Source of the DNA: a virus
DNA: 64,000 nt
Direction: 5' to 3' (one strand)
IMG/VR virus record: IMGVR_UViG_3300048818_000230
Span: 1 to 64,000 of that record
Under the pieces are notes generated by a model. It was not told where the DNA came from. It did no database searches and saw only the letters and a list, made by a program, of their open reading frames with translations. This document shows, piece by piece, positions 18,101 to 56,427 of the stretch (position 1 is its first letter; each line of letters opens with the position of its first letter). The position numbers and the translations under genes were made by a program.

Positions 18101-18408
18101 TCGAAGAGCTGCCAGAGGATTCCGACGTGATCATCGGCGGCGCCGTCATCGAGACGCGCACGACCACTGTCAAGCGCGGCCGGCAGAAAGGCGAGGAGAT
18201 GGCTTTCGTGAAGCTGAGTCTCGATCTCGAGAGCTACAGCATCACGTGCTTCCCCGATGCATGGGCTTCGATGCGGTCTCTGGTTGAGTCTGGCGAGATG
18301 CTGCTGGTACGTGGTCGTTGCGATGATCGTGGCTCGATCATCGCCCAGCGAATGATGAAAATGGACGACTACATTTCCCAAAAAAGAGAACAGGTGGTGG
18401 CTGCATAG
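15178..18408 (+). CDS. dnaE: DNA polymerase III alpha subunit (DnaE-type, PHP domain)
   Basis: PHP LHRHSDASPLDG; palm GPGRGSAAGSLVSYLCGITSIDPL and LPDVDIDFE; 1076 aa. Confidence 0.9.
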   Translation: MMDFCNLHRHSDASPLDGAGTSWQFAERAAEFGQTYLAQTDHATMGGALKHLKACQENGIIPIQGVEAYWRPDRHVRGAEWRYRRWHMVLLATNLKGWHNLIRITSASYVDGFYQNPCVDWELLEQYQEGLICTTACALGPVAYLLENGTDQTVNDFLDRALEIFGDRFFVELMPHDWDRQRSLNLELVSLADCRGIGYYATVDSHYVDADWADTQKIITLIGTNTTVAEAAAKNRERLEHGDEVYELGHEGLHLMSGDEVRERFMRFHPDLGAQVVDRAIATTMDVARMVKPYLMDRALKMPKSVEDPERDIIVWCRQGMERIGKAGDDVYERQLDYELSVIRARKNFSYMWLVGDLVRWAKSDAALPPSEDEPNPQPKKPIRIGPGRGSAAGSLVSYLCGITSIDPLRHKLKFERFLNPERHGLPDVDIDFESVKVDGYNRRPECKEYLVRKHGRGAVADVVSYSTYQPRAAIKDVARIMGIDFKRTEDVIKLIDPVQDSDLEEMCGRIPALYTWSRDFPEAWTHASRLENAGNALVSRMSKHAAGVVIVPGDVVDFMPVVRAAEGEIGYRTAWSETPQISICDDFGFVKIDILGLAGIARQQMAIDSIRELSGEVVDLDALPALRDPYDVDPEVMRVFQDGHTLGLNQFGGGNITSFLRQMRPENIVDLAAANALFRPGPIGSGAPWSYAKRKNGEEEWEVPDQLKDVLGETYGICCFQEQVMEVFQVLAGYSAGRADDVRKIIAKLYREKGDRAKRELRALYEEFEPKARERDMSSEQIADIWAQILPFSGYSFGRGHASGYSCQGYQDAYLKRYYPIHFYAALLTTSNDLALQATREARFFDVGVLPPDINISRPGFTVDYESNALRYGLCSVKGVGDAAAEQVIADRPYASLEDFEQRSSRKYSKVNKGSREKLLQVGALDCFGARITWDPIDRAKAELELLGVALEPGGLLGEDAALIWENVYTEQEIEELPEDSDVIIGGAVIETRTTTVKRGRQKGEEMAFVKLSLDLESYSITCFPDAWASMRSLVESGEMLLVRGRCDDRGSIIAQRMMKMDDYISQKREQVVAA

Positions 18409-45421: not shown

Positions 45422-45952
45422 TCATGCCGAGGATCCTACGTGGATTGGCATATCGGCTAGGCGTTCAGTGCGGCGCGCGTAGTGGTAGAGGTCTCGATGT
45501 TTATCGCTGCAGTAGCGTCGGTTGCGGTAGCCCTCGATGATCAACGCACCGCAGTAACGACACAAGACTTCGAGCCCAGCAGGTCTCGCGCCTAGGCGCG
45601 TCGGAGCCTCATGGATGGCTTCGATGATCGACACAGGAACATCGTAGTAGGCCGCGAGATCGTCTGTGGATGATGGCGATGCTCTACGGATTGCTGGCCT
45701 GAGATTGTGTCGGCGGTTATCTAGTTTGTCGCGATTGACGTGATCGACCTCACGGGTGTCTGCCGCATCAAGTCTCAAGACTGCATGATGGAGGTATACA
45801 TTCCGGTTGTTTTCTGCCGTTGGTGTGCTGCGCTGTACGTAGCCACCGCTATGTTGACGCCAGCGGAACAACGCGAGATTCGCGTCCTCGTCATCGATCA
45901 CCGCGTAGGCTCTGATCGAACCATCCTGTTTTCTCAAAGGTAGGTAGATCAC
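45422..45952 (-). CDS. HNH endonuclease with C-terminal zinc-ribbon-like tail
   Basis: EVDHVNRDKLDNRRHNLR; CRYCGALIIEGYRNRRYCSDKH. Paralog of 7384..7812. Confidence 0.75.
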   Translation of the reverse strand: MIYLPLRKQDGSIRAYAVIDDEDANLALFRWRQHSGGYVQRSTPTAENNRNVYLHHAVLRLDAADTREVDHVNRDKLDNRRHNLRPAIRRASPSSTDDLAAYYDVPVSIIEAIHEAPTRLGARPAGLEVLCRYCGALIIEGYRNRRYCSDKHRDLYHYARRTERLADMPIHVGSSA

Positions 45953-47229
45953 GGCTCGACTTCTGCCTCACTGCCGAGCTGAGCTAGCAGGTCTCGCTCG
46001 CGCTGGGTAAGGTGTTTGAAGCGTTCCTCGTCCGGTAGCATGATTGGTTCGCTCATCGGATTGACTTCTCTGTCGATGAGAGCTCCGAGTTGTTCAGCTG
46101 CCTGGGTATGCGGCTTGTGGTGCACATAAATCATAGTTGTTGACACAGAAGCGTGTCCCGCATAAGCCATGACATCGCTTAGCGGCCAGATTTGAACCCA
46201 CATACAAATTGCCGTGTGGCGCAAATCGTGGAAGCGTAGCCGACGTAGCCCTGCTCTCTCGGCTGCACCGAGGTAGCGTTTGTAGAGTGCTGAGCCGTCG
46301 ATCACGCCGCCTACAGGATTGCAGAAGACGAGCCAGTCTACCTCCGTGAAATACTCTCGACGCGAAAGGTTCTCGAGCGCCTGGGCAGCTTGAGGAACGA
46401 GCGGAACGGATCTCCCTCGGCCAGACTTTGTACGCCCGAAGCTACCCTCGTCCGTGTAGCCGCCGCGCACGAAGATCGTCGACTTGACGAAGTCGATGTC
46501 GCGCCAGCGCAAAGCACGGAGCTCAGAGCGCCGCAGGCCGGCCAGAGCAGCCACGAGATAGATCGCGGCGTCCTGCTCATCGGCAGCAGCGCGCGCAAGA
46601 GCCAAGACCTCAGCCGGCGAGTAGACATCGATGTGCGATTGAGGCTTGATCCTCGAGTGCTCGAACTCCACAGTCGGATCCGGCCCGGAATATCCTCGCG
46701 CCTTCTTCGCGAACTTGTAGATGCCGACGAGCATCGTCCGGGTCTGGTTCAGCGTCGATGCAGAGAGCTGTGTCGGCTGATCGCCGGGTTTGGCGCCACG
46801 GCGGTAGGCAGGACGGCTGATCATCTCGTTGCGGATCGCCATGATGTCTCTCGGGCCGATCGTACTCAACTGGCGCTCGCCGAGAGCGGGTAGAAGATCG
46901 CGCTCGATGATCGAGGAGTACCTGCGCAGAGTAGAAGCACGAAGACCTTGGTGGCGCTCGAGATAGCCAAGATATTCAGCAGCAGCGACAGAGAAGCTCG
47001 GGTTGGAACCGCGCGAGATATTGGCATACTTGACAAGATTCTTCTCCAGCACTTCGCGAGCCATCGTCGCCGTGAAATATCCCTCCGGCGGCCTTCCGCT
47101 GCCCTTCCATGCCAGACCGATACGTCGCTTCAGATGACCATCGCCGGTTCTTATCTGAAAATACCAAGTCGTCCTCTCCGGCGATCTGAGGAAAATGCTG
47201 CCTGCTAATTGACCTGAACGCTTAGCCAT
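45949..47229 (-). CDS. int: tyrosine recombinase / phage integrase
   Basis: LRRSELRALRWRDID (Arg), RFHDLRHTAI (HxxR), GHASVSTTMIYVH (Tyr). Start taken at MAKRSGQ. Confidence 0.85.
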   Translation of the reverse strand: MAKRSGQLAGSIFLRSPERTTWYFQIRTGDGHLKRRIGLAWKGSGRPPEGYFTATMAREVLEKNLVKYANISRGSNPSFSVAAAEYLGYLERHQGLRASTLRRYSSIIERDLLPALGERQLSTIGPRDIMAIRNEMISRPAYRRGAKPGDQPTQLSASTLNQTRTMLVGIYKFAKKARGYSGPDPTVEFEHSRIKPQSHIDVYSPAEVLALARAAADEQDAAIYLVAALAGLRRSELRALRWRDIDFVKSTIFVRGGYTDEGSFGRTKSGRGRSVPLVPQAAQALENLSRREYFTEVDWLVFCNPVGGVIDGSALYKRYLGAAERAGLRRLRFHDLRHTAICMWVQIWPLSDVMAYAGHASVSTTMIYVHHKPHTQAAEQLGALIDREVNPMSEPIMLPDEERFKHLTQRERDLLAQLGSEAEVEP

Positions 47230-47437
47230 GTGCTTCCCGAGCTTCAGATACAAACGCAACAATCGCGTCCCATTCTTCGCGGATGTAACTGAGTCGTTCT
47301 TCGCCCCCAGCATTCCAGATTAGTTGCAATGTTACGCCGCCGTCGTCGTGTGCGTAAACGGCCAAATCGCCATTATGTACGCCATCTCTCCAGCGTCGTA
47401 TAAGTGCATCACCGGAGCGCTCGATGATCTTAGACAT
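47222..47437 (-). CDS. hypothetical protein
   Basis: 71-aa ORF between the xis-like gene and int. Confidence 0.45.
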   Translation of the reverse strand: MSKIIERSGDALIRRWRDGVHNGDLAVYAHDDGGVTLQLIWNAGGEERLSYIREEWDAIVAFVSEAREAHG

Positions 47438-47800: not shown

Positions 47801-48000
47801 CTCTTCACCGGCCTTCCCGCAATTATCCCGACGCCGCCGATAAGCACCAACACACCAATCGAAGCATGTGCCAACAAACCAATACCGACGATAACAGCGA
47901 CAAGACCAACCATGAAGGCTACGCCGGCGATAGTGTCGCTACGAGATTCGCGCTTCGATGGCATCTCTCGGCCTCCATTGGTGACACTCATGAGCGCCAC
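47797..48000 (-). CDS. small membrane protein
   Basis: Two helices (IAGVAFMVGLVAVIVGIGLLA; VLVLIGGVGIIA). Confidence 0.45.
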   Translation of the reverse strand: MALMSVTNGGREMPSKRESRSDTIAGVAFMVGLVAVIVGIGLLAHASIGVLVLIGGVGIIAGRPVKR

Positions 48001-49046
48001 CGATCACAGATAGTCTGAATTTCAGCCGAATTCACAAAAGCACCTTGGAAACGCACACACGGCGCACCACCCATAGAGAACAGACCGTCACCATTACCCA
48101 AAAGTGCCTCGGCACCATTCTTGTCAAGAGCTACCCTAGAGTCTGTCATCGAACTCACTCGAAAGCAGATCCGTGAAGGGATGTTAGCTTTCAGTAATCC
48201 AGTGAAGATTTGCACTCTAGGTGATTGTGTCGCTAATACAAGATGGATGCCGACAGCGCGAGATTTCTGAGCCAACCGCACGATCAGCGACTCACTCTCC
48301 TTGCGGCTGCTCATCATCAGATCGGCCAGCTCGTCGATTACGACGACGATGTACGGACAAGGTGCGTATCCGGCAGCCTCGAGTTTCGTGTTGAACTCGG
48401 GTAACGAGCGCGCGGAAAACTTCTGCATGACGTCGTAGCGCATCTCCATGAGCTTGACGGTAGAGCGCAGACGAGCAAGCGCCGAGTCGACATCAGTGGC
48501 GATTGGCGCGAGCAACTGACTGATGCCCTCATAAGGCGCCAGCTCGACTTGCTTGGGATCGATCAGCACGAGACCAAGCTCATCGGGACCAAAGCGGCTC
48601 AGAAACGAGCAGAGCATGGCGTTGATCGCGGCACTTTTCCCAGAGCCAGTTTCGCCCAGAATGCCTAGATGCGGCGATTCGGCGAGGTTGCAGAAGATCG
48701 GGTTGCCATCCATATCCGGACCGAGCGGGAAGCTCAGCGGTTCAATCGGTGGCGGCATCGCGGCAAGATGCTCGATCCTGCGGTCGTTGCGTGCAACCTC
48801 GACGCCGATTTCGCCGGCTTTCCCAGCTAGCGGTGCCAGGATCTTCACGCGCGCTCCCAGCGCGAATTCCAGATCGACGCCCATGCGGTTGTACTCGCGC
48901 ATTCGCATCGGGGTAGACGGTTTCAGCTCGAAACGGTCTGACTGCGGCCCTGCAACGGTGCGCAGGAGCTCGCAGGAGCCACCGAGAGCGTCAAGAGCGC
49001 CCAAGAGCACGTCTTCCCTCGATGGTTCCGCGAGAACGGCGCTCAT
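47988..49046 (-). CDS. FtsK/SpoIIIE-family DNA translocase ATPase
   Basis: Walker A LGILGETGSGKSAAINAM, Walker B YIVVVIDELADLMM, HLVLATQSP. Confidence 0.85.
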   Translation of the reverse strand: MSAVLAEPSREDVLLGALDALGGSCELLRTVAGPQSDRFELKPSTPMRMREYNRMGVDLEFALGARVKILAPLAGKAGEIGVEVARNDRRIEHLAAMPPPIEPLSFPLGPDMDGNPIFCNLAESPHLGILGETGSGKSAAINAMLCSFLSRFGPDELGLVLIDPKQVELAPYEGISQLLAPIATDVDSALARLRSTVKLMEMRYDVMQKFSARSLPEFNTKLEAAGYAPCPYIVVVIDELADLMMSSRKESESLIVRLAQKSRAVGIHLVLATQSPRVQIFTGLLKANIPSRICFRVSSMTDSRVALDKNGAEALLGNGDGLFSMGGAPCVRFQGAFVNSAEIQTICDRWRS

Positions 49047-49270
49047 GACGTCTCCGCATTGCGGTTGCGTATACGGAATTCGTAGGTGAAGTGCGGCATT
49101 CCGGCCTCATAGATGAACTTCCATCCCATCGTCTTGTAGATAGCTTGATCGGCGAGCGGGCCGGGAATGGGTAGCAGCGACAGACCGACGATAAAGCGCA
49201 GCGGCTTAGGGATGCGCTTGTCGCGAGCTACGATCTTCGCGGCTCTGATTGCGCGCTTGATCTTGCTCAT
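49043..49270 (-). CDS. hypothetical protein
   Basis: 75-aa ORF, ATGA-coupled. Confidence 0.4.
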   Translation of the reverse strand: MSKIKRAIRAAKIVARDKRIPKPLRFIVGLSLLPIPGPLADQAIYKTMGWKFIYEAGMPHFTYEFRIRNRNAETS

Positions 49271-49506
49271 GCCTCTCTCCTCTCTGCCGGTTCGTACGCG
49301 ACGATGCGAACGGACAATGGGTCGATTCTCTTGCCGTCGACCAAAATCCCAAAGCCGACGAGCGCGGCATCGAGTAGTGCTCTGTGCTCATCAGTCAGAC
49401 CGTTCACGCGGCCATTCTCGATCTCGCGCGCAAGATCCTCGTGGCCGTCATTGCGAAGACGCTCCACAAACTCTGTCACGCTTGGACGGGTAGGTTCTGT
49501 GCTCAT
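49267..49506 (-). CDS. hypothetical protein
   Basis: 79-aa ORF, ATGA-coupled. Confidence 0.4.
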   Translation of the reverse strand: MSTEPTRPSVTEFVERLRNDGHEDLAREIENGRVNGLTDEHRALLDAALVGFGILVDGKRIDPLSVRIVAYEPAERREA

Positions 49507-49829
49507 CGGTTTGTTGCTCGGATCTCGTTCAGCATTGCTCGCTTCTCGTCATCTAGGCGATCCCGGTCGATCTCGAAATACTCGGCCAGAATGCGGTCGA
49601 TTGTCCGGTACGTCGGGTGCCATTCGGTGATTCGGACGACTCCGTCAACGGCGATCGCTCCAAATGGCAGTAACTGCGTGGTCATCGTGAGCGGCGGTTG
49701 AGGCTGATGCAGGATCCTCTCGCGCGGCTTGATCCCGCAAGCGATCATGTCTGCTTGAGCATCTGCTCTCGTCAGCGGAGGCTTTTGCGGCGCTGCTAGG
49801 ACTTCAAGTTTTGGCGTGGCTCGATCCAT
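49503..49829 (-). CDS. hypothetical protein
   Basis: 108-aa ORF downstream of the promoter at 49897-49925. Confidence 0.4.
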   Translation of the reverse strand: MDRATPKLEVLAAPQKPPLTRADAQADMIACGIKPRERILHQPQPPLTMTTQLLPFGAIAVDGVVRITEWHPTYRTIDRILAEYFEIDRDRLDDEKRAMLNEIRATNR

Positions 49830-49896
49830 CGATTGATCGTCTCCATTCGTCTCGTGGGTAGAACGCGGCTAGTCGACCGCGCCAAATCTACTAGCT

Positions 49897-49925
49897 AGCT
49901 TACCGATGCTCGGTAGCTCCGTCAA
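49897..49925 (-). promoter_or_regulatory. promoter TTGACG-N17-TAAGCT followed by AGCTAGTAG
   Basis: Counted on the minus strand. Confidence 0.45.
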
Positions 49926-49958
49926 GTGCTGCGAAAATCCCTGCTATGCCGCGAAGGA

Positions 49959-50093
49959 TCAACCCATGATTCCACTTCTGTAGAGGTCTGCTCGGACGGC
50001 CATCGTCTCACGACGGACCAGGGCAAACTGTTGATCCGTGTTCAGCGGTCGCTTAGGCGGTATCGGCTTGGGTTGCTTCTTGGCTGGCTTCAT
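49959..50093 (-). CDS. 44-aa basic protein (below ORF-track cutoff)
   Basis: Manual translation MKPAKKQPKPIPPKRPLNTDQQFALVRRETMAVRADLYRSGIMG. ATGA overlap upstream. Confidence 0.3.
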   Translation of the reverse strand: MKPAKKQPKPIPPKRPLNTDQQFALVRRETMAVRADLYRSGIMG

Positions 50094-50353
50094 GCGCTTC
50101 TCCCCTCCGGATCACTCGGCAAAATTCCGCCAGGCGCGTTATAGCGTGCTATCAGCTCTTCGCAGAGGGCAGGGAACGCGCGATATAGCGCGTCTGCGTT
50201 ATACGTGTCCGCCTGCCGGAACGCTGCCATAATCAGGGCATAGAACGGCAGATCATCGGAAATCAGTTTGCGCGAGATTTTGTAGTCGTAAAGGCTCACT
50301 GCGTCGTCTCCTCGGCGATCGGCACGTACTTCAAACCCAAAGAGACGTACCAA
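50090..50353 (-). CDS. hypothetical protein
   Basis: 87-aa ORF. Confidence 0.4.
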   Translation of the reverse strand: MVRLFGFEVRADRRGDDAVSLYDYKISRKLISDDLPFYALIMAAFRQADTYNADALYRAFPALCEELIARYNAPGGILPSDPEGRSA

Positions 50354-50522
50354 TGACCGTTGCGGTGCGCTCGTCCAGCACGCCTATGGCGCGTATATAG
50401 CAACTATTTTTGCACGCCTTGGAAAATCTGTGGGCATTGATTGGCGACTCAAACGCCCAAATCTCCGGCTCGGTGTCGTCATTGTCCACAATTACTAGGT
50501 AGACGCTCATTGCTTCGCTCAT
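50331..50522 (-). CDS. hypothetical protein
   Basis: 63-aa ORF. Confidence 0.4.
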   Translation of the reverse strand: MSEAMSVYLVIVDNDDTEPEIWAFESPINAHRFSKACKNSCYIRAIGVLDERTATVIGTSLWV

Positions 50523-50716
50523 CTCTCAGCCTCCTTATCGTGTCGCGCGTAATCGACAAACTGCCGTCTGATCTTGTCCAGCGTCGAGCATTGCCAACCG
50601 GCCGCACAAGATCGAACGGCCATCAGCTCATCATCTGTCATCGTCGGCGCGATCTTGCACGTACATGTGAGACGTGCGTCTAGAATCGCTTGGATTGAGT
50701 CTGTGCGCGCGCTCAT
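50519..50716 (-). CDS. hypothetical Cys-rich protein
   Basis: Internal ATG 50716 overlaps the upstream stop. MSARTDSIQAILDARLTCTCK... Confidence 0.35.
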   Translation of the reverse strand: MSARTDSIQAILDARLTCTCKIAPTMTDDELMAVRSCAAGWQCSTLDKIRRQFVDYARHDKEAER

Positions 50717-50985
50717 GCATGTTTCGGGGTAGTAGGATCGTTCGCTAGCGCTGTGTCGACCATATCGGCGACGATTACGATTGTGTCGGCGTTCCATTCG
50801 TAGTAATCGTCACCCGTTGAATAATTCGGATGATCGGCTACTTGCTTAGCCGGGTAGATCTCCGGGTAGAGGTAGCGATGAATCTTACGCAGCGCCGCTA
50901 GCGCTTTCAATCCGCGCTCGATCTCTTTGTGCTCGGCGTTTGCAAAAGCATTGTCGCTGATCCTCTTACCATAATCGTCAGTCAT
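50713..50985 (-). CDS. hypothetical protein
   Basis: 90-aa ORF, ATGA-coupled. Confidence 0.4.
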   Translation of the reverse strand: MTDDYGKRISDNAFANAEHKEIERGLKALAALRKIHRYLYPEIYPAKQVADHPNYSTGDDYYEWNADTIVIVADMVDTALANDPTTPKHA

Positions 50986-51455
50986 CGTGTCTCCTCTCTC
51001 AGCTCCGCATTCGCTAGGACATATGCCAGCGCGTCCTCGAGACTTTCATGCGTGCAGTGGTAGTAGATTCCATCCTTGGCGGATCGCACGGAGATATGTG
51101 CTTGCACGCTCACGCCTAGTGGCCGCGGCTTATAGATCATGTCGCCATCGCTGCGCTCACAAATCAGCCGGTAGCGTTCCTCCGTCCGTTCCGTATTCTC
51201 GCTCGCGCATAGACCGATCTCGCTATTGCGGCCGATCCCGTCGACCTCATGCGTTTTCAGCCAAGCGCCGCCAGAGAGCCGGTCGGAATTGAAGCGGATC
51301 ACAACGGGTAGACCGTAGGCATCGCGCAGCATCTCTGCGGCGCGCTGTACGGTCGCGTCAAGCTCATCGCTACGGCCGCTATAGCCTCCTCCGACAATCG
51401 CGGGTAGCGTGCCGATGCTCACGACCAGGCCAGCGCTACGTTCGATCTCGCTCAT
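50982..51455 (-). CDS. hypothetical protein
   Basis: 157-aa ORF, ATGA-coupled. Confidence 0.45.
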   Translation of the reverse strand: MSEIERSAGLVVSIGTLPAIVGGGYSGRSDELDATVQRAAEMLRDAYGLPVVIRFNSDRLSGGAWLKTHEVDGIGRNSEIGLCASENTERTEERYRLICERSDGDMIYKPRPLGVSVQAHISVRSAKDGIYYHCTHESLEDALAYVLANAELREETR

Positions 51456-51568
51456 CGCCGCTTGCCCCCGTACTTTTCCGCGCGGGTAGCCTTGCGCTCG
51501 ATAGTCGTCGCTCGTGCATCGCGTGAGCGCTTAGGGTCGGAGGGTTGGTAGTCATTTGTCTTGCGCAT
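51452..51568 (-). CDS. 38-aa basic protein
   Basis: Internal ATG of ORF-track 51452..51745: MRKTNDYQPSDPKRSRDARATTIERKATRAEKYGGKRR. The upstream part is Arg-rich junk. Confidence 0.3.
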   Translation of the reverse strand: MRKTNDYQPSDPKRSRDARATTIERKATRAEKYGGKRR

Positions 51569-51656
51569 AGTCGTGCGCTCCTGTCTCGTCTCATTGCCGC
51601 TCGGTAGTGAGCGGGTGAGAGGATTCGACTCGCGCCAAATCCTCGCATCCGTTCCG

Positions 51657-51911
51657 CTACTTGCCAAATACTGTCTTGGGTACGGGGTCGCCAGTTTTCC
51701 AGCGCGACGTTCCGAACGCATAGAACACCGCGCGCGAGTTTGCATCCTGCGCCAAGCGCGTCCCGCGCTTGACGTTCGCTAGCGCTTCGCCGTGCGTGCT
51801 GTACGGACCGAGCAGGAAACCAGTGCGGCCAGCATCCCGCACGGTCACATAGAACAGGCGCGCTGTAGTTCCTGGAGGGATTGCGCGAGCTCGCTGGACT
51901 AGATCGCTCAT
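51657..51911 (-). CDS. hypothetical protein
   Basis: 84-aa ORF with normal composition. Confidence 0.45.
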   Translation of the reverse strand: MSDLVQRARAIPPGTTARLFYVTVRDAGRTGFLLGPYSTHGEALANVKRGTRLAQDANSRAVFYAFGTSRWKTGDPVPKTVFGK

Positions 51912-52237
51912 CGTGGCACCCCGAATGCTTGGCGCAGCTCGCTTTCGCGCTTAGCGTCGATCTTGCGCGCGCTGAGCAGTCGGCGGCTATGTCCGCCCCA
52001 TTGACGAACTGAGCCATGATCTAGGTCGCGGATGAATCCGTGGCCGAAGTCGGCGCCGTCGACAATCTCCGCCAGGGAAACGCAGCGGTGAGCATTCCAG
52101 CGCGTTACGGCGCCGAGAATCGTCCACTTGCCACTGTAGTTCCAGCCGCGCGGACCATCGGAACGCGCGACGACATCGCCGCTATCAGTCAACAGATAGC
52201 GCGTATGGTCTCGTGTCGTCAGCTCGATCATCGCCAC
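51908..52237 (-). CDS. hypothetical protein
   Basis: 109 aa from GTG 52237. Alternative ATG 52231 overlaps the stop of a 23-codon mini-ORF (52228..52299) that follows the conserved leader. Confidence 0.45.
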   Translation of the reverse strand: MAMIELTTRDHTRYLLTDSGDVVARSDGPRGWNYSGKWTILGAVTRWNAHRCVSLAEIVDGADFGHGFIRDLDHGSVRQWGGHSRRLLSARKIDAKRESELRQAFGVPR

Positions 52238-52323
52238 ACCGCGATGTAGTTCGGTCGCACGATTCGGACTTCCTTGGGTGGTTTTGCTTTTGTGCGCATC
52301 GTCTCGTCTCTCTGTTTGGACTT

Positions 52324-52384
52324 GGCATCGTCAGACGCGGGCAGTCAATCCCGCGCGACGCCGCATAAGCGGCGTTTCGCCTAT
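52324..52384 (-). ncRNA. type II hammerhead ribozyme candidate HH-1 (one extra U after A9)
   Basis: AGGC-GAA-ACGCCGC-UUAU-GCGGCGU-C(52357)-GCGCGGG-AUUGACUG-CCCGCGU-CUGACGA-U-GCC, read on the minus strand. Confidence 0.55.
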
Positions 52385-52554
52385 AGCTCGGTAACGTCTT
52401 CGCGCATATGGCGATTGCGGTAGTTCACGACGGCATCGGCAATCTTGCGATCTTCGAACGTGTCATAAACCACGCTATCGCGGACCACTTCATAGACCCG
52501 ATCGGTGCCAGATACGCGGGCGAATCGCTCCTGTACGTACCACTGGTCGGTCAT
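52381..52554 (-). CDS. 57-aa protein (below ORF-track cutoff)
   Basis: Manual translation MTDQWYVQERFARVSGTDRVYEVVRDSVVYDTFEDRKIADAVVNYRNRHMREDVTEL. Preceded by a 28-codon ORF (52551..52637) with ATGA overlaps. Confidence 0.35.
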   Translation of the reverse strand: MTDQWYVQERFARVSGTDRVYEVVRDSVVYDTFEDRKIADAVVNYRNRHMREDVTEL

Positions 52555-52633
52555 AGCTGCCCCTTTCTATGCTCAGCTTCGCCGAGCGCGTACAGGAGAC
52601 CGCTCAGCGCTTGCAGGATGCGTTTCCGCTTGC

Positions 52634-53014
52634 TCATACCGGGACGCACACTCCCTCATTGCCCCAGTCGTCATAGAGCGAGCTCCATTCGCCCGGCGCC
52701 GTGATCTTGACCGTGCATCCGCGCGGATCGCCCTGGAAGACGACGCCGAACGGGCCATCGTCGGTCGCGGGCAAATCCTGCACGAGCGAGCGAATGCGGG
52801 CCTCGATCTTCTCTTCGCGCGCATCAGCGCGATTCGACGCCGCTTCATCCCAGCTACCGTCATACGTCTGATAGCCGTTACACGCTTGCTCCTGGAGTCG
52901 ATGATGCGTTGTCGCGTGCCTGCAAATCAGCGAGCAAGTCTCGGTGATCGCCCGTGTGGTACCGATTGCCGGCGCTAGCTTGAACGCCAATTCACGACCT
53001 TTATTCGTCGCCAT
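52634..53014 (-). CDS. hypothetical protein
   Basis: 126-aa ORF with normal composition. Confidence 0.45.
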   Translation of the reverse strand: MATNKGRELAFKLAPAIGTTRAITETCSLICRHATTHHRLQEQACNGYQTYDGSWDEAASNRADAREEKIEARIRSLVQDLPATDDGPFGVVFQGDPRGCTVKITAPGEWSSLYDDWGNEGVCVPV

Positions 53015-53132
53015 AATCTCGTCTCTCTCTAGTTTGTGGAATCGGCCGGAAAGTCACTCCGGCAAGCCGCATGATCTCATCCGATGAGAAAGCCTCGCGC
53101 TCTAACGCATGCGGCGACAGTCTTAGGGTCGG

Positions 53133-53477
53133 TCAGTCGGTCGCCTCCGTGTCTGCGTTGTAGATATTGCGGCGCGTCGTGATTGGATCTCCGTCCGCGG
53201 TTGCTTCCATGAAACGGTCAATTCTGGCGTTCGCGTCGAATTGCCCGACTGTCACGAGAAACGCGCGCACAGTCGAAAGCTCCGCGACCGCCTGCTCTAG
53301 ATCGCGCGCGACGAGCTCAAGCGATGCGTTTAGGTCGTGCCCGTAGCCGTCGCGGATAGCGCCGTATTCGCGGATCTCGTCAATACGCATTCCGGCTACC
53401 TTCGCCGCGACTCCGGCCGTTCCCAGCCAATCGCGCACACTTCCACCGTTAGACATCTTGCGGTCTAGATCAGTCAT
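53133..53477 (-). CDS. hypothetical protein
   Basis: 114-aa ORF. Its ATG lies 12 nt after HH-2. Confidence 0.45.
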   Translation of the reverse strand: MTDLDRKMSNGGSVRDWLGTAGVAAKVAGMRIDEIREYGAIRDGYGHDLNASLELVARDLEQAVAELSTVRAFLVTVGQFDANARIDRFMEATADGDPITTRRNIYNADTEATD

Positions 53478-53489
53478 CTAATCGTCTCC

Positions 53490-53557
53490 CTGTTAGCTCA
53501 TCAGCGCGAGATAGTCTGTCTCGCGGACACTCGCTCTAGCGCGAGTGTTTCGCTCAG
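53490..53557 (-). ncRNA. type II hammerhead ribozyme candidate HH-2 (fully canonical core)
   Basis: CUGAGC-GAA-ACACUCGC-GCUAGA-GCGAGUGU-C(53526)-CGCGAGA-CAGACUA-UCUCGCG-CUGAUGA-GCU-AA-CAG, read on the minus strand. Confidence 0.7.
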
Positions 53558-53802
53558 TCGGTCGGTAGAAACGTGCTCGATATCGAGCAATCTTGAGTCG
53601 AAGTCGTCACGTGCGGTACGCCTAGTAGCTCGGTGTCAGTGCCGACATACGGGCCGCTCACGCGGAGCTGTATCGTCCAACCGCGCCGATACTCGATGAT
53701 TCGACCAGTTGGGAACCCGTGCGCTTGCGCGTGCTCGACTGCATCCGCGCGTGTAGCGAAGTAGCGGATGCCCTTATGTAGCTTGCTCGTCTGCTCAGTC
53801 AT
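53554..53802 (-). CDS. hypothetical protein
   Basis: Internal ATG (MTEQTSKLHKGIRYFATRADAVEHAQAHGF...) with an 8-nt overlap onto the upstream gene. Confidence 0.4.
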   Translation of the reverse strand: MTEQTSKLHKGIRYFATRADAVEHAQAHGFPTGRIIEYRRGWTIQLRVSGPYVGTDTELLGVPHVTTSTQDCSISSTFLPTD

Positions 53803-54028
53803 CGCTACTCGCAGTCTGTAGAAAGCCGAATGCGCCGCAGTAGACCGCAACGTGAGTCCACTTCGCGCCTGTCACCGTATAGACGTTGTAAGTCTCGGCC
53901 GGATCAGTCCGGCGCTGGAGCATGTAGCGCGTGCAAGTAGCGAGCGATTGATAGTTGCCCGCGACTGTGCCGAGCGAACCTAGTCGGTCGCGACCGTTTG
54001 CGTCTGTCGGTCGCGCTATATAGCGCAT
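53795..54028 (-). CDS. hypothetical protein
   Basis: Internal ATG (MRYIARPTDANGRD...), 2 nt after the upstream stop. Confidence 0.4.
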   Translation of the reverse strand: MRYIARPTDANGRDRLGSLGTVAGNYQSLATCTRYMLQRRTDPAETYNVYTVTGAKWTHVAVYCGAFGFLQTASSDD

Positions 54029-54030
54029 CG

Positions 54031-54219
54031 CTACAGCTCCTCTGCGTAGTTGTGGACGGGATAGCAATGCTGCGCGGAGAATGCGTCAACCCGCGCGATG
54101 AAGTCGTCGACAACGTCGTGAGAGCGCTCGATATACGGGCGCGCGCAAGGATGATCGTCTGTATCGACGGCCGGATAAGGAACGTATACCGGCCACTCGC
54201 TAGTCAATGTCTGTACCAT
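54031..54219 (-). CDS. hypothetical protein
   Basis: Start MVQTLTSEW follows the conserved leader CAGAGAGACGAGACG directly after HH-3. Confidence 0.4.
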   Translation of the reverse strand: MVQTLTSEWPVYVPYPAVDTDDHPCARPYIERSHDVVDDFIARVDAFSAQHCYPVHNYAEEL

Positions 54220-54242
54220 CGTCTCGTCTCTCTGTCTCGCTT

Positions 54243-54299
54243 GGCTCGTCAGTGCGGGAGTCACCCGCAGACGGCGCTACTGCGCGCCGTTTCGCCCTA
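54243..54299 (-). ncRNA. type II hammerhead ribozyme candidate HH-3
   Basis: GGGC-GAA-ACGGCGC-GCAGUA-GCGCCGU-C(54270)-UGCGGG-UGACU-CCCGCA-CUGACGA-GCC, read on the minus strand. Confidence 0.65.
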
Positions 54300-54560
54300 T
54301 GCGAAGATGGATTCGTCGTGAGTCAACGCCCAGACAATCTGCTCGTCAGTCGCGTCCATAGCGTTGAGCGCGCTAGCAGCACCAGGGACGCCGCACAACG
54401 TCGTCCAACGGCCGATGAATTCGTACATACCGGGACCAGTGACGATGATCGTCGGCTGCTCCTGATCGGCCAGATTCGAGCCGTGCGCGTTCGGCCGGCG
54501 CCGAACAATGAAACGGCCTCGCTTCGTCTGAACCTCGCCGGATGAATCACTCTCAGTCAT
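54297..54560 (-). CDS. hypothetical protein
   Basis: 87-aa ORF. Its stop codon lies inside HH-3 stem II. Confidence 0.45.
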   Translation of the reverse strand: MTESDSSGEVQTKRGRFIVRRRPNAHGSNLADQEQPTIIVTGPGMYEFIGRWTTLCGVPGAASALNAMDATDEQIVWALTHDESIFA

Positions 54561-54671
54561 CGTCTAGCCTCTCTGCCGCTAGTCAAGCGGCCCTGCTTAG
54601 TCTCTCGCGATCAGTGCTGCAAGGCCACGCACGCGCTACAGCGAGCGCCGTGCGGGCCGAAGATCAGTCGT

Positions 54672-54833
54672 TCAGCGCTCTGAGTCGAACCTTTGCGCGA
54701 GCGCGATAACTTCCGCGCGCATCGTCTCATTGTGGAAGCGCTCATCTAGTGTCTTGCGGAGCGCCCAAGCGATCAGACCGGCTTCGCGCTCAGAGACACC
54801 AGTGATCGGCGCCGGAATACTCTGCTCAGCCAT
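54672..54833 (-). CDS. 53-aa protein, first gene of the operon (below ORF-track cutoff)
   Basis: Manual translation MAEQSIPAPITGVSEREAGLIAWALRKTLDERFHNETMRAEVIALAQRFDSER. Leader GGGAGACGATGAGCG upstream. Confidence 0.35.
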   Translation of the reverse strand: MAEQSIPAPITGVSEREAGLIAWALRKTLDERFHNETMRAEVIALAQRFDSER

Positions 54834-54891
54834 CGCTCATCGTCTCCCTAGATCGTCTCTCGCGCTAGTCTCACGCGCGTCTGATAGATGG

Positions 54892-54919
54892 ATCATACAC
54901 ATCTACATAGCTACGTCAA
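54892..54919 (-). promoter_or_regulatory. promoter TTGACG-N16-TATGAT for the minus-strand small-gene operon
   Basis: Counted on the minus strand. An AT-rich tract (CTTTTATTAGAAG) lies just upstream. Confidence 0.45.
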
Positions 54920-55518
54920 GGCTACTGTGATCACTTCTAATAAAAGGCTTTCGCCAGAGGGAAAGCACACCGCAGACAGGCGCTCAGCCATTGCTACGTA
55001 CTGATGCGAGACCTACTGTCGACGGAGAGCGGGAGAATCGCTCAGACCGCGCCGAAAGACTCTCTCTCAACCTTCCGGCCCTCTCAGTCACTACCTAGAG
55101 CGTGTCTCGTGAGTGCTCTAGCTTGTTTCACCGGACATAAGTGCTTGCGCTAGCTAGCAGTCTCTCTGTCACCTTCGCGCACTGCCGGCCGCGCGTACAA
55201 AACCCTGGACGCCGGAGCTCGGTCACCGGAAAGTATGTGATCCGATGTCCAAGAGAGCCCCGCCAACACTGAACGCGAACGCGGATTGAGAATCCCCCGA
55301 CCCTCCCCAGGGGTCTGCCTCTTGGCCATGCCGGCGCGCGATTCGACCCCGGATGGTAGACAGCTTGAGAACTCGCCAACAGAGCATTCCAACTCGCTCA
55401 GCAGAGGTCGTGTCATCGCTCAGAAGCGCATTGCGATGAGGAAGAGCTGCCCGAGCAAGCACCTACGCCGGCTATCAGAGCAGTGCTCTACTGACGGTAG
55501 GAAGGGGTCTGAGAGGGT

Positions 55519-55558
55519 CTTCGGGCCGATCTGGGAGGATTTCGGCCGATTTAGGGCC
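55519..55558 (+). repeat. tandem TTCGG(G)CCGATnTnGGG repeat inside the 0.95-kb non-coding region
   Basis: ttcgggccgatctggg / ttcggccgatttaggg. GGGTCT recurs at 55311, 55505, 55515 and 55645; GAGGATTTCG recurs twice in the region (within 55531-55550 and near 55701). Confidence 0.45.
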
Positions 55559-55831
55559 TTTTCGACGAGGTGCGTTTCGACAAAGTCCCTGCATAGCGTG
55601 GGTTTTGACCCCCTCTGTGCTCGGATCCGGCTACCCCTCCCCTAGGGTCTTCTACCGGCTGAGTCCTCTTGCGCAGATTCCTCCGGCGGAATCTGAGATT
55701 TTCGAGGATTTCGCTACTCCCTCTATGTATGAGGAAGCTAAGTATTTAGCTCGATGCTATTGCTCAGATGAGCATCGCCACGAAGATCTGCCTAAAGTGC
55801 GCGATCACTCTGCGATGACTAGCTTCCGACC

Positions 55832-55860
55832 TTGCTGTCTGGAGAAGCTGCTGCTAAGCT
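55832..55860 (+). promoter_or_regulatory. promoter TTGCTG-N17-TAAGCT followed by GATCTAGTAGG
   Basis: Counted directly, upstream of the 55906 operon. Confidence 0.45.
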
Positions 55861-55905
55861 GATCTAGTAGGTAGGTTCTTGGCGGCTACTGGGGAAGGAG
55901 TTGTT

Positions 55906-56427
55906 GTGGGCGAGCCTGAACGTTGGGACATGGACGAGCGAGAGCTTGCTTGGGTGGAGGGGATTACCCGCAGTGGCCTGGACTTGAACTTCTTCCATGC
56001 CGAACAGTGCATTCTCCGTTTGCGCGAGGTCGATGCTTTCTCTGACGCGCAGGCTCTGTCAGACCGCGCGGTCTTCCGCATCCGCTGCCGCTGTACCGAT
56101 GTCCTCGCCGTCGACCTCGAGCGTATGTGTGTGCAGCTTGTGCCGCGGACGAGAGTGCTCGAACTCAAACAGATCACAGAGCCGGCCGCTGCCGACAAGA
56201 TCACAGTCACTCCTGCAGGAGTGTTTCCCGGCGAGGATCCCAACATTGCCGCAAGTGAACTTAGTGAAGACGAAGTCCGCGCGTTGTTACAGGGCGCGAC
56301 GATTACCGAGTTGGTCGAGCATCTGCATCCCGTCGAGGGTGATCGTCTCCAACTGACACTCGCAAGCGGCTACTCCGTGCAGATCGCTGCTCAGCGTCTA
56401 CGATTGAGCGCGGTGAAGATCGCGTGA
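55906..56427 (+). CDS. hypothetical protein
   Basis: GTG after GAAGGAG, 173 aa. Confidence 0.45.
   Translation: MGEPERWDMDERELAWVEGITRSGLDLNFFHAEQCILRLREVDAFSDAQALSDRAVFRIRCRCTDVLAVDLERMCVQLVPRTRVLELKQITEPAAADKITVTPAGVFPGEDPNIAASELSEDEVRALLQGATITELVEHLHPVEGDRLQLTLASGYSVQIAAQRLRLSAVKIA

What the first reader, a model, noticed from the sequence alone, without database searches (positions are those of the whole stretch)
49830..54930. A small-gene operon with ribozyme-punctuated spacers and an operon-specific purine-rich leader
About 25 short minus-strand ORFs run from the TTGACG-N16-TATGAT promoter (54892-54919) down to about 49.5 kb. None has a motif I recognise. Most are stop/start coupled. 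The few real spacers are all strongly structured. Eight start codons are preceded by the same purine-rich leader rather than the GGAGG seen elsewhere in the window. Examples are CAGAGAGACGAGACG-ATG at 52299 and 54219, and variants at 50985, 51568, 53014, 53477, 54560 and 54833. Three spacers hold hammerheads. The combination suggests deliberate post-transcriptional segmentation of one early transcript. I am not aware of this being described for this kind of phage.
Basis: inference. Interest (0 to 1): 0.65.

Follow-up and report, generated by a model that had tools for sequence, protein, structure and literature searches.

The report
Hammerhead ribozymes punctuating a phage operon
Three self-cleaving hammerhead RNAs sit between genes of a small-gene operon in an uncultured actinobacterial phage, each followed directly by a ribosome-binding leader; this layout was described for prophages in 2011 and I also find it, unannotated, in cultured Streptomyces phages, so it is real but not new.

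Summary
On the minus strand a sigma-70-like promoter (54919-54892) precedes 22 small ORFs that end at an FtsK-like gene. Three spacers hold type II hammerheads with intact cores: 52315-52382, 53488-53555 and 54239-54297. A GAGAC-type purine-rich leader precedes every gene that follows a real spacer. Two claims fail. The non-hammerhead spacers are not unusually structured, except spacer D. The leader is not an alternative to a Shine-Dalgarno site but a variant of one. Five of eight copies contain GGAG or GAGG, and the sister phage has GAGG where the window has GAGA. Predicted pairing to the 16S tail equals that of the other operon genes. The unit (stop codon, hammerhead, about 10-20 nt, start codon) recurs in a sister phage as conserved islands between non-homologous genes. 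It also recurs in more than 100 viral contigs and in Streptomyces phage Janus, which has 11 hammerheads in 8.3 kb. Perreault et al. 2011 described clustered type II hammerheads flanking prophage genes and proposed the same mRNA-processing role. Verdict: a new member of a known kind. Leads found in passing: a GACU-loop hairpin plus leader module shared by hammerhead and non-hammerhead spacers, and two orphan spacers (C, D) conserved as tightly as the ribozymes.

The parts
54892..54919 (-). Sigma-70-like promoter TTGACG-N16-TATGAT of the operon
   Evidence: 10 of 12 consensus positions. A terminator-like hairpin lies at 54966-54947 just upstream. Partly conserved in sister phage L084 (73%).
49043..54833 (-). 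Array of 22 small ORFs (g1-g22, 23-157 aa), 12 of them joined by ATGA overlaps, running into the FtsK-like gene at 47988-49046
   Evidence: independent gene calls. No Pfam hit and no informative PHROG among the 20 ORFs scanned; g8 and g10 were not scanned.
54239..54297 (-). HH3, type II hammerhead. Its first base is the last base of the g2 stop codon (TAG 54299-54297). Predicted cleavage is between 54270 and 54269. No loop I-tail pseudoknot.
   Evidence: Rfam 35.9 bits, E=2e-4. Own CM 55.3 bits. 93% identical to the L084 ortholog although the flanking genes are non-homologous. Pseudoknot at most 2 bp.
53488..53555 (-). HH2, type II hammerhead overlapping the g5 stop codon (TGA 53556-53554). 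Predicted cleavage is between 53526 and 53525. No pseudoknot.
   Evidence: Rfam 36.1 bits. Own CM 72.4 bits. 98.4% identical to the L084 ortholog against about 50% for g5. Pseudoknot at most 3 bp.
52315..52382 (-). HH1, type II hammerhead overlapping the g9 stop codon (TAG 52383-52381). Predicted cleavage is between 52357 and 52356. It has a 4-bp pseudoknot between loop I GACU and tail AGUC.
   Evidence: Rfam 45.2 bits, above gathering 37. Own CM 75.9 bits. The L084 ortholog has a 6-bp pseudoknot UUGACU/AGUCAA.
52300..52316 (-). Leader ACAGAGAGACGAGACG before g10 (ATG at 52299), directly after the HH1 tail
   Evidence: Predicted anti-SD pairing -7.4 kcal/mol. L084 has AGAGAGGCGACGACG at the same place.
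54220..54236 (-). Leader ACAGAGAGACGAGACG before g3 (ATG at 54219), directly after HH3
   Evidence: L084 has AGAGAGGCGAGACGAG.
53478..53493 (-). Leader CAGGGAGACGATTAG before g6 (ATG at 53477), after HH2. It contains a GGAG core.
   Evidence: -10.3 kcal/mol.
53015..53132 (-). Spacer C: a three-way-junction domain (53066-53132), then a GACU-loop hairpin (53045-53063), then the leader CTAGAGAGAGACGAGATT before g7 (ATG at 53014). No Rfam match.
   Evidence: The P1 domain is 97% identical to L084, and the indels between the two phages are not multiples of three. The downstream gene differs: g7 here, ArdA in L084. No homolog elsewhere.
51569..51656 (-). Spacer D: an 11-bp hairpin with a GCGA loop, a 6-bp hairpin (51597-51656), then the leader GAGACGAGACAGGAGC before g13 (ATG at 51568). 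No Rfam match.
   Evidence: Fold z = -2.2. The hairpin domain is 98.3% identical to L084, against 63% for g12 and 75% for g13. No homolog elsewhere.
54561..54671 (-). Spacer B: GACU-loop hairpin (54575-54591) directly followed by the leader AGAGAGGCTAGACG before g2 (ATG at 54560). Not conserved in L084.
   Evidence: (z = +0.45).
54834..54888 (-). 5' UTR: GACU-loop hairpin (54861-54877) starting about 8 nt after the predicted transcription start, then the leader GGGAGACGATGAGCG before g1 (ATG at 54833)
   Evidence: The same hairpin is present in the L084 5'UTR.
49830..49958 (-). Spacer E: possible internal promoter TTGACG-N17-TAAGCT (49925-49897, read by eye, below the scanner's threshold), GACU-loop hairpin (49862-49883), then the leader GAGACGAATGGAGACG before g20 (ATG at 49829)
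   Evidence: (z = +0.29). L084 has TTGACA-N17-TAGATT plus the hairpin at the equivalent place.

Best explanation
The region is a probably early operon of about 22 small genes in an uncultured, likely temperate actinobacterial phage. The source contig is 95 kb and the host is probably a soil Thermoleophilia/Solirubrobacterales bacterium.

Three genuine type II hammerhead ribozymes sit exactly at cistron junctions. Each begins on the stop codon of the upstream gene, and its model end lies 10-19 nt before the next start codon.

Inferred mechanism: as the polycistronic RNA is made, each ribozyme folds and cuts itself 3' of the GUC triplet. This splits the transcript into four segments: g1-g2, g3-g5, g6-g9, and g10 onward. 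Because these are type II hammerheads, the upstream product ends in the stem III hairpin with a 2',3'-cyclic phosphate. The downstream product starts with a 5'-OH directly on the stem I hairpin, followed by the ribosome-binding leader. Each segment therefore gets defined, hairpin-capped ends, and its stability and translation are uncoupled from its neighbours.

The purine-rich leader is the Shine-Dalgarno-type ribosome-loading site of every cistron that cannot use ATGA termination-reinitiation coupling. Its GAGAC flavour is lineage-specific sequence, not a separate mechanism.

Shown here: the ribozyme sequence and structure, their covariation, their positions, their conservation as islands in a sister phage, and the generality of the layout. 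Inferred: cleavage in vivo, end protection, differential expression, and early timing.
For: Identity of the hammerheads: Rfam hits with full catalytic cores. Across 25 homologous hammerheads from this and related phages, 93.6% of cells are paired against about 26-60% in slid controls, and 15 of 18 pairs show changes on both sides. No other hammerhead occurs in the window.

Placement: each overlaps a stop codon and the next start codon follows 10-19 nt after the model end.

Selection: in sister phage L084 the hammerheads are 84-98% identical islands, while several flanking genes are non-homologous or only 50-77% identical.

Generality: 3-4 same-strand hammerheads, each followed by AGGAGG and a start codon, occur in L061/L063/L064/L066. 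Of 132 unique viral hammerheads of this subtype, 122 have a start codon within 60 nt. Streptomyces phage Janus has 11 hammerheads in 8.3 kb, each in an intergenic spacer, with a 14-19 nt gap to the next start in most cases.

Leader as SD variant: it precedes all 8 genes that follow real spacers. Relatives have AGGAGG or GAGG at the same position. Mean predicted anti-SD pairing is -9.3 kcal/mol, against -9.2 for the other operon genes.

Published precedent: clustered prophage hammerheads cleave about 2 kb polycistronic RNAs in vitro, and in E. coli for the A. tumefaciens ardA cluster (PMC3088659).
Against: HH2 and HH3 score about 1 bit below Rfam gathering. They also lack the loop I-tail pseudoknot, which PMC3088659 found critical for fast cleavage of a type II hammerhead, so they may be slow, conditional or dependent on a factor. 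HH1 has an extra U between A9 and stem II, although its ortholog and the L061-group hammerheads share it. Predicted accessibility of the RBS does not change consistently on cleavage, so any benefit is not simple RBS unmasking. No transcript data exist, and early timing is inferred only from context. The 16S tail used for the pairing energies is the canonical bacterial one, not the unknown host's. The closest FtsK relative (L001) and 160 further FtsK-anchored loci have no hammerhead, so the trait is dispensable.
Confidence: 0.75

Rival explanations
1. The repeated unit that matters is the GC-rich hairpin with a GACU loop plus the purine-rich leader. It would act as an operon-wide RNA operator for a phage or host RNA-binding protein, giving translational control or 5'-end stabilisation. 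The hammerheads would be one of several ways, alongside promoters, to place that hairpin at a 5' end.
For: Seven of the 8 spacers have such a hairpin just upstream of the leader, and in 3 of them it is hammerhead stem I. Eleven of the 22 minus-strand GACU-loop hairpins in 64 kb lie in the 5.5 kb operon. The stems all differ while the loop GACU is kept. The same modules occur in sister phage L084. In HH2, HH3 and the non-hammerhead hairpins the GACU loop has no complementary tail, so pseudoknot formation cannot explain why it is kept.
Against: All copies could descend from one duplicated cassette, with the loop retained by ancestry. Only two genomes are available. GACU is 4 nt. No candidate binding protein is identifiable, because none of the 20 small ORFs scanned has an informative family hit. 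More distant hammerhead arrays use other loops (UGACC in the L061 group).
Confidence: 0.15
2. The hammerhead-plus-leader cassettes mainly serve genome evolution. As short conserved repeats between genes they would act as homology patches at which gene cassettes are swapped between phages. Ribozyme activity would be incidental or selfish.
For: In the window-versus-L084 comparison the hammerheads, spacer C and the leaders are islands of 84-98% identity flanked by non-homologous genes. Within the L061-L066 group the hammerhead copies are near-identical to each other. PMC3088659 also notes that the flanked genes 'are not constant'.
Against: The three hammerheads in the window differ in every stem through compensatory changes, so they offer little DNA homology to each other, while the catalytic core and fold are preserved. 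That pattern indicates selection at the RNA level. Placement relative to stop and start codons is too exact and too general for a mere linker.
Confidence: 0.07
3. Only HH1 is an efficient ribozyme. HH2 and HH3 are weak or inactive relics, and the operon is essentially one unprocessed polycistron with a single cut.
For: HH2 and HH3 fall just below the Rfam gathering score and lack the pseudoknot. The L084 ortholog of HH3 carries an extra C between stem I and the core.
Against: Both have complete cores and canonical helices. They are the best-conserved hammerheads between the two phages, at 98.4% and 93% against diverged flanks. PMC3088659 estimates that only about 40% of all hammerheads use a pseudoknot, although a majority of type II representatives can form one of 4 bp or more.
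Confidence: 0.12
4. Successive hammerhead cleavage followed by ligation (for example by RtcB) produces circular or spliced RNAs from the segments between ribozymes.
For: Same-strand hammerheads 0.7-1.2 kb apart give segments with 5'-OH and 2',3'-cyclic phosphate ends, which are substrates for ligation (inference). PMC3088659 raises this possibility.
Against: PMC3088659 looked for such products and found none. A chimeric junction between HH2 and HH3 would form only a 2-bp stem II (read from the sequence). Nothing in the sequence requires circularisation.
Confidence: 0.03

Closest known systems
Clustered type II hammerhead ribozymes flanking genes in prophages (Perreault et al. 2011, PMC3088659), e.g. 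the Agrobacterium tumefaciens triple hammerhead around ardA
   Same: Type II topology, very short stem II, and a loop I-tail pseudoknot in HH1. Several same-strand copies lie within a few kb, flanking single genes or short gene blocks whose identity varies between relatives. There is an association with anti-restriction genes: ArdA in the sister operon and Ocr-like genes in the region matching the Janus array in Janus relatives. The proposed role, processing a long phage transcript, is the same.
   Different: A new phage lineage: DnaE is only about 31% identical to any GenBank phage, and the host is a probable Thermoleophilia bacterium. Two of the three copies lack the pseudoknot. The leader is a GAGAC-rich SD variant. 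Non-hammerhead spacers share the stem-I-like hairpin plus leader.
Hammerhead array of Streptomyces phage Janus (NC_054660.1) and related Arquatrovirinae, detected here and not annotated in the record
   Same: Small hypothetical genes separated by 60-80 nt type II hammerheads (11 in 8.3 kb). The hammerhead starts at or within about 16 nt of the upstream stop codon in most cases and ends 14-19 nt before the next start in most cases. The leaders are purine-rich.
   Different: Denser array, canonical GAGGAG-type SD, and GCCAAGCC tails. No detectable sequence relationship between the genes. Janus is cultured, so it can be tested directly.
RNase III processing of the phage T7 early polycistronic mRNA (own knowledge: Dunn and Studier)
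   Same: It works like this: one early promoter-driven transcript encoding small host-takeover genes, including the anti-restriction gene 0.3 (ocr), is cut between cistrons at structured spacers. The cuts leave hairpin-capped, individually stable mRNAs.
   Different: In T7 the cuts are made by a host protein enzyme at long double-stranded sites. Here the RNA cuts itself, giving 5'-OH and cyclic phosphate ends.
RiboJ and related synthetic ribozyme insulators (own knowledge: Lou et al. 2012)
   Same: A hammerhead placed just upstream of an RBS removes upstream RNA context, so that the downstream cistron has a fixed 5' UTR.
   Different: RiboJ is engineered from a type III satellite-RNA hammerhead with an added hairpin. 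Here the unit is natural, type II, and repeated within one operon. Predicted RBS accessibility did not change on cleavage.

Membership tests
Hammerhead ribozyme, type II (Rfam RF02276) | Conserved catalytic core: CUGANGA, GAAA, an A15.1-U16.1 pair and a cleavable NUH triplet | tested here: met
   All three have CUGA(C/U)GA, GAAA and GUC in register (alignments). HH1 has one extra U after A9, shared with its L084 ortholog and the L061-group hammerheads.
Hammerhead ribozyme, type II (Rfam RF02276) | Three helices in type II permutation: stems I and III closed by loops, stem II open | tested here: met
   structure lines; 93.6% of cells paired over 25 sequences, 15 of 18 pairs with changes on both sides, slid controls 26-60%.
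Hammerhead ribozyme, type II (Rfam RF02276) | Score at or above the curated gathering threshold (37 bits) | tested here: inconclusive
   HH1 scores 45.2 and passes. HH2 (36.1) and HH3 (35.9) are about 1 bit short, with E about 2e-4 in a 10 kb search. Their L084 orthologs score 32.6 and 36.4.
Hammerhead ribozyme, type II (Rfam RF02276) | Pseudoknot of at least 4 bp between loop I and the 3' tail after stem II (present in most type II members and important for fast cleavage, PMC3088659) | tested here: inconclusive
   HH1 has 4 bp (GACU/AGUC) and its L084 ortholog has 6 bp. HH2 and HH3 have at most 3 bp, no better than chance. The feature is typical of the family but not obligatory.
Hammerhead ribozyme, type II (Rfam RF02276) | Site-specific self-cleavage | not testable with these tools
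   Requires in vitro transcription or in vivo mapping of RNA ends.
Clustered prophage hammerheads that process polycistronic RNA (PMC3088659) | Several same-strand hammerheads within a few kb, flanking single genes or short gene blocks in a phage or prophage, with variable gene content | tested here: met
   Three hammerheads in 2 kb on the coding strand. Phage identity. Integrase at 45949-47313. Gene content differs in sister phage L084 while the hammerheads persist.
Clustered prophage hammerheads that process polycistronic RNA (PMC3088659) | All copies lie on one transcript | tested here: inconclusive
   One strong promoter upstream and no terminator-like site on the coding strand within the operon. 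Weak internal promoter candidates in spacers B and E were seen by eye only.
Shine-Dalgarno ribosome-binding site (for the leader) | Purine tract complementary to the 16S rRNA 3' tail, about 5-12 nt upstream of the start codon, at genes that need de novo initiation | tested here: met
   The leader precedes all 8 genes that follow real spacers. Duplex energies run from -7.4 to -14.7 kcal/mol with mean -9.3, equal to the other operon genes (canonical 16S tail assumed). Relatives carry AGGAGG or GAGG at the same position.
Shine-Dalgarno ribosome-binding site (for the leader) | Canonical GGAG/GAGG core | tested here: inconclusive
   Present in 5 of 8 leaders (g1, g2, g6, g13, g20). The three exact copies before g3, g7 and g10 have GAGAGAC with no GG. 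The sister phage has GAGG at the g3 and g10 equivalents.
Other self-cleaving ribozyme classes (twister, twister-sister, pistol, hatchet, HDV-like) for spacers B-E | Match to the family covariance model | tested here: not met
   No hit at E up to 10 in 47-57 kb. No cryptic hammerhead with filters off.

The most novel reading that the evidence does not exclude
Spacers C and D are new RNA processing elements, possibly new self-cleaving motifs, that do the same job as the hammerheads. They occupy hammerhead-equivalent positions: each starts right after a stop codon and is followed by a hairpin, a leader and a start codon. Between the two phages they are conserved as tightly as the ribozymes (97-98%, against 63-75% for neighbouring genes). 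They match no Rfam family. In addition, the GACU-loop hairpin shared by all junctions would be a common recognition element for an unknown factor.
Probability: 0.1. Interest if true: 0.7.

Novelty: new member of a known kind. Interest (0 to 1): 0.35.

Why it matters
The biological role of the hundreds of bacterial and phage hammerheads is still described as largely elusive (PMC6765202). This window does not answer that question, and its phage is uncultured. It does add a clean example in a new actinophage lineage. It shows precise junction geometry (stop codon, ribozyme, SD-type leader, start codon). It also shows ribozymes conserved as islands while the genes around them are exchanged.

The more useful by-product is that cultured Streptomyces phages such as Janus carry up to 11 unannotated hammerheads in one small-gene region next to anti-restriction genes. 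That gives a tractable system in which to test whether ribozyme punctuation sets the stability and translation of individual early mRNAs. It also flags a gap in phage annotation.

Tried and rejected
(1) Decayed hammerheads in spacers B, C and D. By eye they resembled hammerheads (CUGAUCG, CGGAAC, CAAUGAGAC). The unfiltered CM gave nothing above noise; the best hit was 6 bits, E=4, for the spacer C hairpin. Rejected.

(2) Cleavage unmasks the RBS. The probability that positions -18 to +3 are unpaired, before and after cleavage, changed inconsistently: 0.43 to 0.50, 0.60 to 0.40, 0.66 to 0.61, and similarly mixed in L084. Not supported.

(3) The leader is a non-SD signal. Its predicted anti-SD pairing equals that of other genes, and relatives have an SD at the same position. 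Rejected as stated.

(4) The array is linked to the FtsK-like gene. Of 79 viral loci only about 7 have hammerheads, and 160 metagenome and genome loci (2 Mb) have none.

(5) Contexts of g14 and g12 homologs (L086-L097, L378-L380) have no hammerhead and no spacer C or D homolog.

(6) Homologs of spacers C and D in about 100 hammerhead-rich viral loci and by exact DNA pattern: none.

(7) The exact 17-mer leader in IMG/VR gave one unrelated hit, L080, downstream of a promoter-like site. Uninformative.

(8) The extra hairpin-plus-GAGACGAGACG copy at 39633-39590 lies inside a 75-aa ORF with no start codon after it. Probably coincidental.

(9) L081-L083 are 100% identical to the window, so they show no microevolution.

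(10) An integron-like cassette array was considered because of the small promoterless ORFs, structured spacers and nearby tyrosine recombinase. I did not pursue it. The spacers carry intact ribozyme cores with RNA-level covariation, and the integrase lies downstream of the array rather than adjacent and divergent at its head.

Full report
WHAT IS THERE. The window comes from a 94,971-bp scaffold of a wood-associated metagenome, and two Logan contigs are 100% identical over this region. It is a phage. It encodes an endolysin, tail-fibre-like and terminase-like proteins, DnaE, DnaB, a primase, a tyrosine integrase and an FtsK-like protein. Its DnaE is only about 31% identical to the nearest GenBank phages, which are Streptomyces phages. 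No GenBank phage matches the operon DNA. The closest genomic relatives of the FtsK-like gene, at about 50% identity, are in Solirubrobacterales, Paraconexibacteraceae and Gaiellales MAGs. The host is therefore probably a soil Thermoleophilia actinobacterium.

CHECK OF THE OBSERVATION. The promoter TTGACG-N16-TATGAT at 54919-54892 (-) is the better of the only two promoter-like sites the scan found in 9 kb, matching 10 of 12 positions, and a terminator-like hairpin lies just upstream. Downstream I map 22 small ORFs (g1-g22, 23-157 aa) that end at the FtsK-like gene. Twelve junctions are ATGA overlaps. An independent gene caller gives nearly the same map. The 20 ORFs I scanned have no Pfam hit, and only two match PHROGs of unknown function. 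Real spacers follow g1 (B, 111 nt), g2 (77), g5 (76), g6 (C, 118), g9 (81), g12 (D, 88) and g19 (E, 129).

Rfam places type II hammerheads in three of these spacers: 52315-52382 (45.2 bits, gathering 37), 53488-53555 (36.1) and 54239-54297 (35.9). All have intact CUGANGA/GAAA/GUC cores. A covariance model built from the three finds nothing else in the window, even with filters off.

The leader is real. The exact 12-mer AGAGAGACGAGA occurs three times, only in the operon. GAGACGA occurs 14 times in the operon against 16 times on both strands of the remaining 58 kb. GAGAC lies within 25 nt upstream of 10 of 23 operon starts, against about 3% expected.

One claim fails: that all spacers are strongly structured. 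The 5'UTR and spacers B, C and E fold no better than shuffled sequence (z from +1.4 to -0.26). Only spacer D (-2.2) and the hammerhead spacers (-1.1 to -2.5) do.

THE HAMMERHEADS ARE GENUINE AND UNDER SELECTION. The three paralogs share the core but differ in every stem through compensatory changes. Across 25 related hammerheads, 93.6% of cells pair, against 26-60% in slid controls, and 15 of 18 pairs change on both sides. A sister phage, L084 (94,059-bp contig), has orthologs of all three plus a fourth. In the alignment of the two operons, the hammerheads, spacer C and the leaders are islands of 84-98% identity. Several flanking genes are non-homologous or only 50-77% identical.

Each hammerhead begins on the upstream stop codon (TAG|GCGAAAC or TGA|GCGAAAC), and its model ends 10-19 nt before the next ATG. 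HH1 can form the loop I-tail pseudoknot typical of type II hammerheads: 4 bp here and 6 bp in its ortholog. HH2 and HH3 cannot. This is a caveat, because that pseudoknot was critical for fast cleavage in the type II ribozyme tested in PMC3088659.

THE LEADER IS AN SD VARIANT. It precedes exactly the eight genes that follow real spacers, which are the ones that cannot reinitiate through an ATGA overlap. Five of the eight contain GGAG or GAGG. The three GG-less copies (before g3, g7 and g10) correspond to AGAGAGGCGAGACG-type leaders with GAGG in the sister phage for g3 and g10. More distant relatives have AGGAGG at the same position after their hammerheads. GGAGAC-type sites also occur outside the operon. 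Predicted pairing to a canonical 16S tail averages -9.3 kcal/mol, against -9.2 for the other operon genes. Even AGAGAGAC reaches -7.4 by pairing with the pyrimidine-rich tail. Cleavage does not consistently change the predicted accessibility of the RBS.

HOW GENERAL, AND WHAT IS KNOWN. A pattern scan of IMG/VR found at least 119 contigs with this hammerhead subtype, with up to 5 copies per locus. Of 132 unique copies, 122 have a start codon within 60 nt, usually 13-28 nt after the tail, and often with a purine-rich ...CGAGAGGAG... leader. One of these loci is Streptomyces phage Janus. Rfam finds 11 type II hammerheads in 8.3 kb there (8 above gathering), each in a spacer between small hypothetical genes and none annotated. 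Eighty-seven Streptomyces phage records match the region, and some carry an Ocr-like anti-restriction gene.

Perreault et al. 2011 (PMC3088659) already reported type II hammerheads with this pseudoknot and clusters of hammerheads flanking genes of varying identity in prophages. They also reported cleavage of about 2 kb polycistronic RNAs in vitro, and in E. coli for an A. tumefaciens cluster flanking ardA, and an ardA association in Legionella. They proposed processing into single-gene or operon-length mRNAs. A 2019 review still calls the function largely elusive and repeats the hypothesis of different stabilities or translation efficiencies (PMC6765202). I found no paper on hammerheads in actinophages.

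MECHANISM. Shown: ribozyme identity, fold, position and conservation. Inferred: co-transcriptional self-cleavage yields four segments of about 0.6 kb, 0.74 kb, 1.17 kb and at least 4.4 kb. Because the topology is type II, the upstream fragment ends in the stem III hairpin with a cyclic phosphate. The downstream fragment starts with a 5'-OH on the stem I hairpin, 45-57 nt before its start codon. Such ends should resist 3' exonucleases and 5'-monophosphate-dependent RNases (established RNA-decay knowledge, not tested here). The functional analogue is RNase III processing of the T7 early mRNA, which also begins with an anti-restriction gene (own knowledge). The ArdA gene in the sister operon fits an early, anti-defence role.

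LEADS BEYOND THE FINDING. (i) Seven of the eight spacers carry a GC-rich hairpin with a GACU loop just before the leader. In three of them it is hammerhead stem I, and in the 5'UTR and spacer E it follows a promoter or a promoter candidate. Stems covary, the loop is fixed, and such hairpins are strongly concentrated in the operon. Every independently translated segment may therefore start with the same 5' hairpin-plus-leader module. (ii) The hairpin domain of spacer D (98.3% identical, against 63% and 75% for its flanks) and the three-way-junction domain of spacer C (97%) are conserved like the ribozymes. They have no Rfam match and no homolog outside the two phages. With only two sequences their nature cannot be decided.

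VERDICT. This is a real, well-formed example of a known arrangement in a new phage lineage. The special leader is a lineage-specific SD variant. Novelty is low to moderate. The best follow-up is experimental work on Janus-like Streptomyces phages.

Noticed in passing
window 54861-54877, 54575-54591, 54253-54269, 53505-53525, 53045-53063, 52335-52356, 49862-49883 (all minus strand): A recurring module: a GC-rich 5-8 bp hairpin whose loop contains GACU(A), followed 0-33 nt later by the purine-rich leader and ATG. Three copies are hammerhead stem I and four are in non-hammerhead spacers or the 5'UTR. The stems all differ and the loop is conserved. Eleven of the 22 such hairpins on this strand of the 64 kb lie in the operon. 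The same modules occur in sister phage L084.
   Followed up: partly
window 51597-51656 (-), spacer D: Two hairpins (11 bp with a GCGA loop, then 6 bp) starting right after the g12 stop codon. They are 98.3% identical to L084, while flanking g12 and g13 are 63% and 75% identical. Fold z = -2.2. No Rfam match and no homolog in about 120 other loci.
   Followed up: partly
window 53066-53132 (-), spacer C: A compact three-way junction: an 8-bp P1 enclosing two short hairpins. It is 97% identical to L084, and the indels between the phages are not multiples of three. The downstream gene differs (g7 here, ArdA in L084). No Rfam match.
   Followed up: partly
L377 (Streptomyces phage Janus NC_054660.1, 41806-50106): Eleven type II hammerheads (8 above Rfam gathering) in 8.3 kb, one per intergenic spacer between small hypothetical genes gp78-gp60. 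None is annotated in the record. 87 Streptomyces phage records match the region, and some have an Ocr-like anti-restriction gene there.
   Followed up: partly
window 49897-49925 (-), spacer E: A possible internal promoter TTGACG-N17-TAAGCT ahead of g20-FtsK. L084 has TTGACA-N17-TAGATT at the equivalent place. It falls below the promoter scanner's threshold. Spacer B has a weaker candidate, TTGCAG-N17-TAAGCA.
   Followed up: no
window 52551-52637 (g8, 28 aa) and 52228-52299 (g10, 23 aa), minus strand: Two mini-ORFs missed by the automatic gene caller. g8 is conserved in L084 (blastn 87%), where it directly precedes the HH1 ortholog. g10 carries the perfect leader and is ATGA-coupled to g11 but is not conserved in L084, so it may be a leader peptide or loading ORF.
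   Followed up: partly
window 54920-55905: About 1 kb without a convincing gene between the operon promoter and the divergent gene at 55906-56427. It is 76% identical to L084, where a 189-aa gene is called in the equivalent stretch, so it may be a disrupted or miscalled regulator gene.
   Followed up: no
window 18408-20564 (+): A 718-aa ORF whose N-terminal half matches terminase large-subunit PHROGs and whose C-terminal half matches a UvsX-like recombinase. This is an unusual combination, or a start or frame miscall.
   Followed up: no
L084 6390-6929; L378 6324-6914: ArdA anti-restriction genes sit in the sister phage's version of the operon, downstream of spacer C. In another phage an ArdA gene lies next to a g12 homolog with no hammerhead nearby. 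This echoes the ardA-hammerhead association noted in PMC3088659.
   Followed up: partly
L379 3700-7650: A g12 homolog sits among small genes separated by unusually long spacers of 250-500 nt, with no Rfam hit at E up to 0.05.
   Followed up: no
L084 5030-5096: The sister phage's HH3 ortholog has an extra C between stem I and the CUGACGA core, which may reduce its activity.
   Followed up: no
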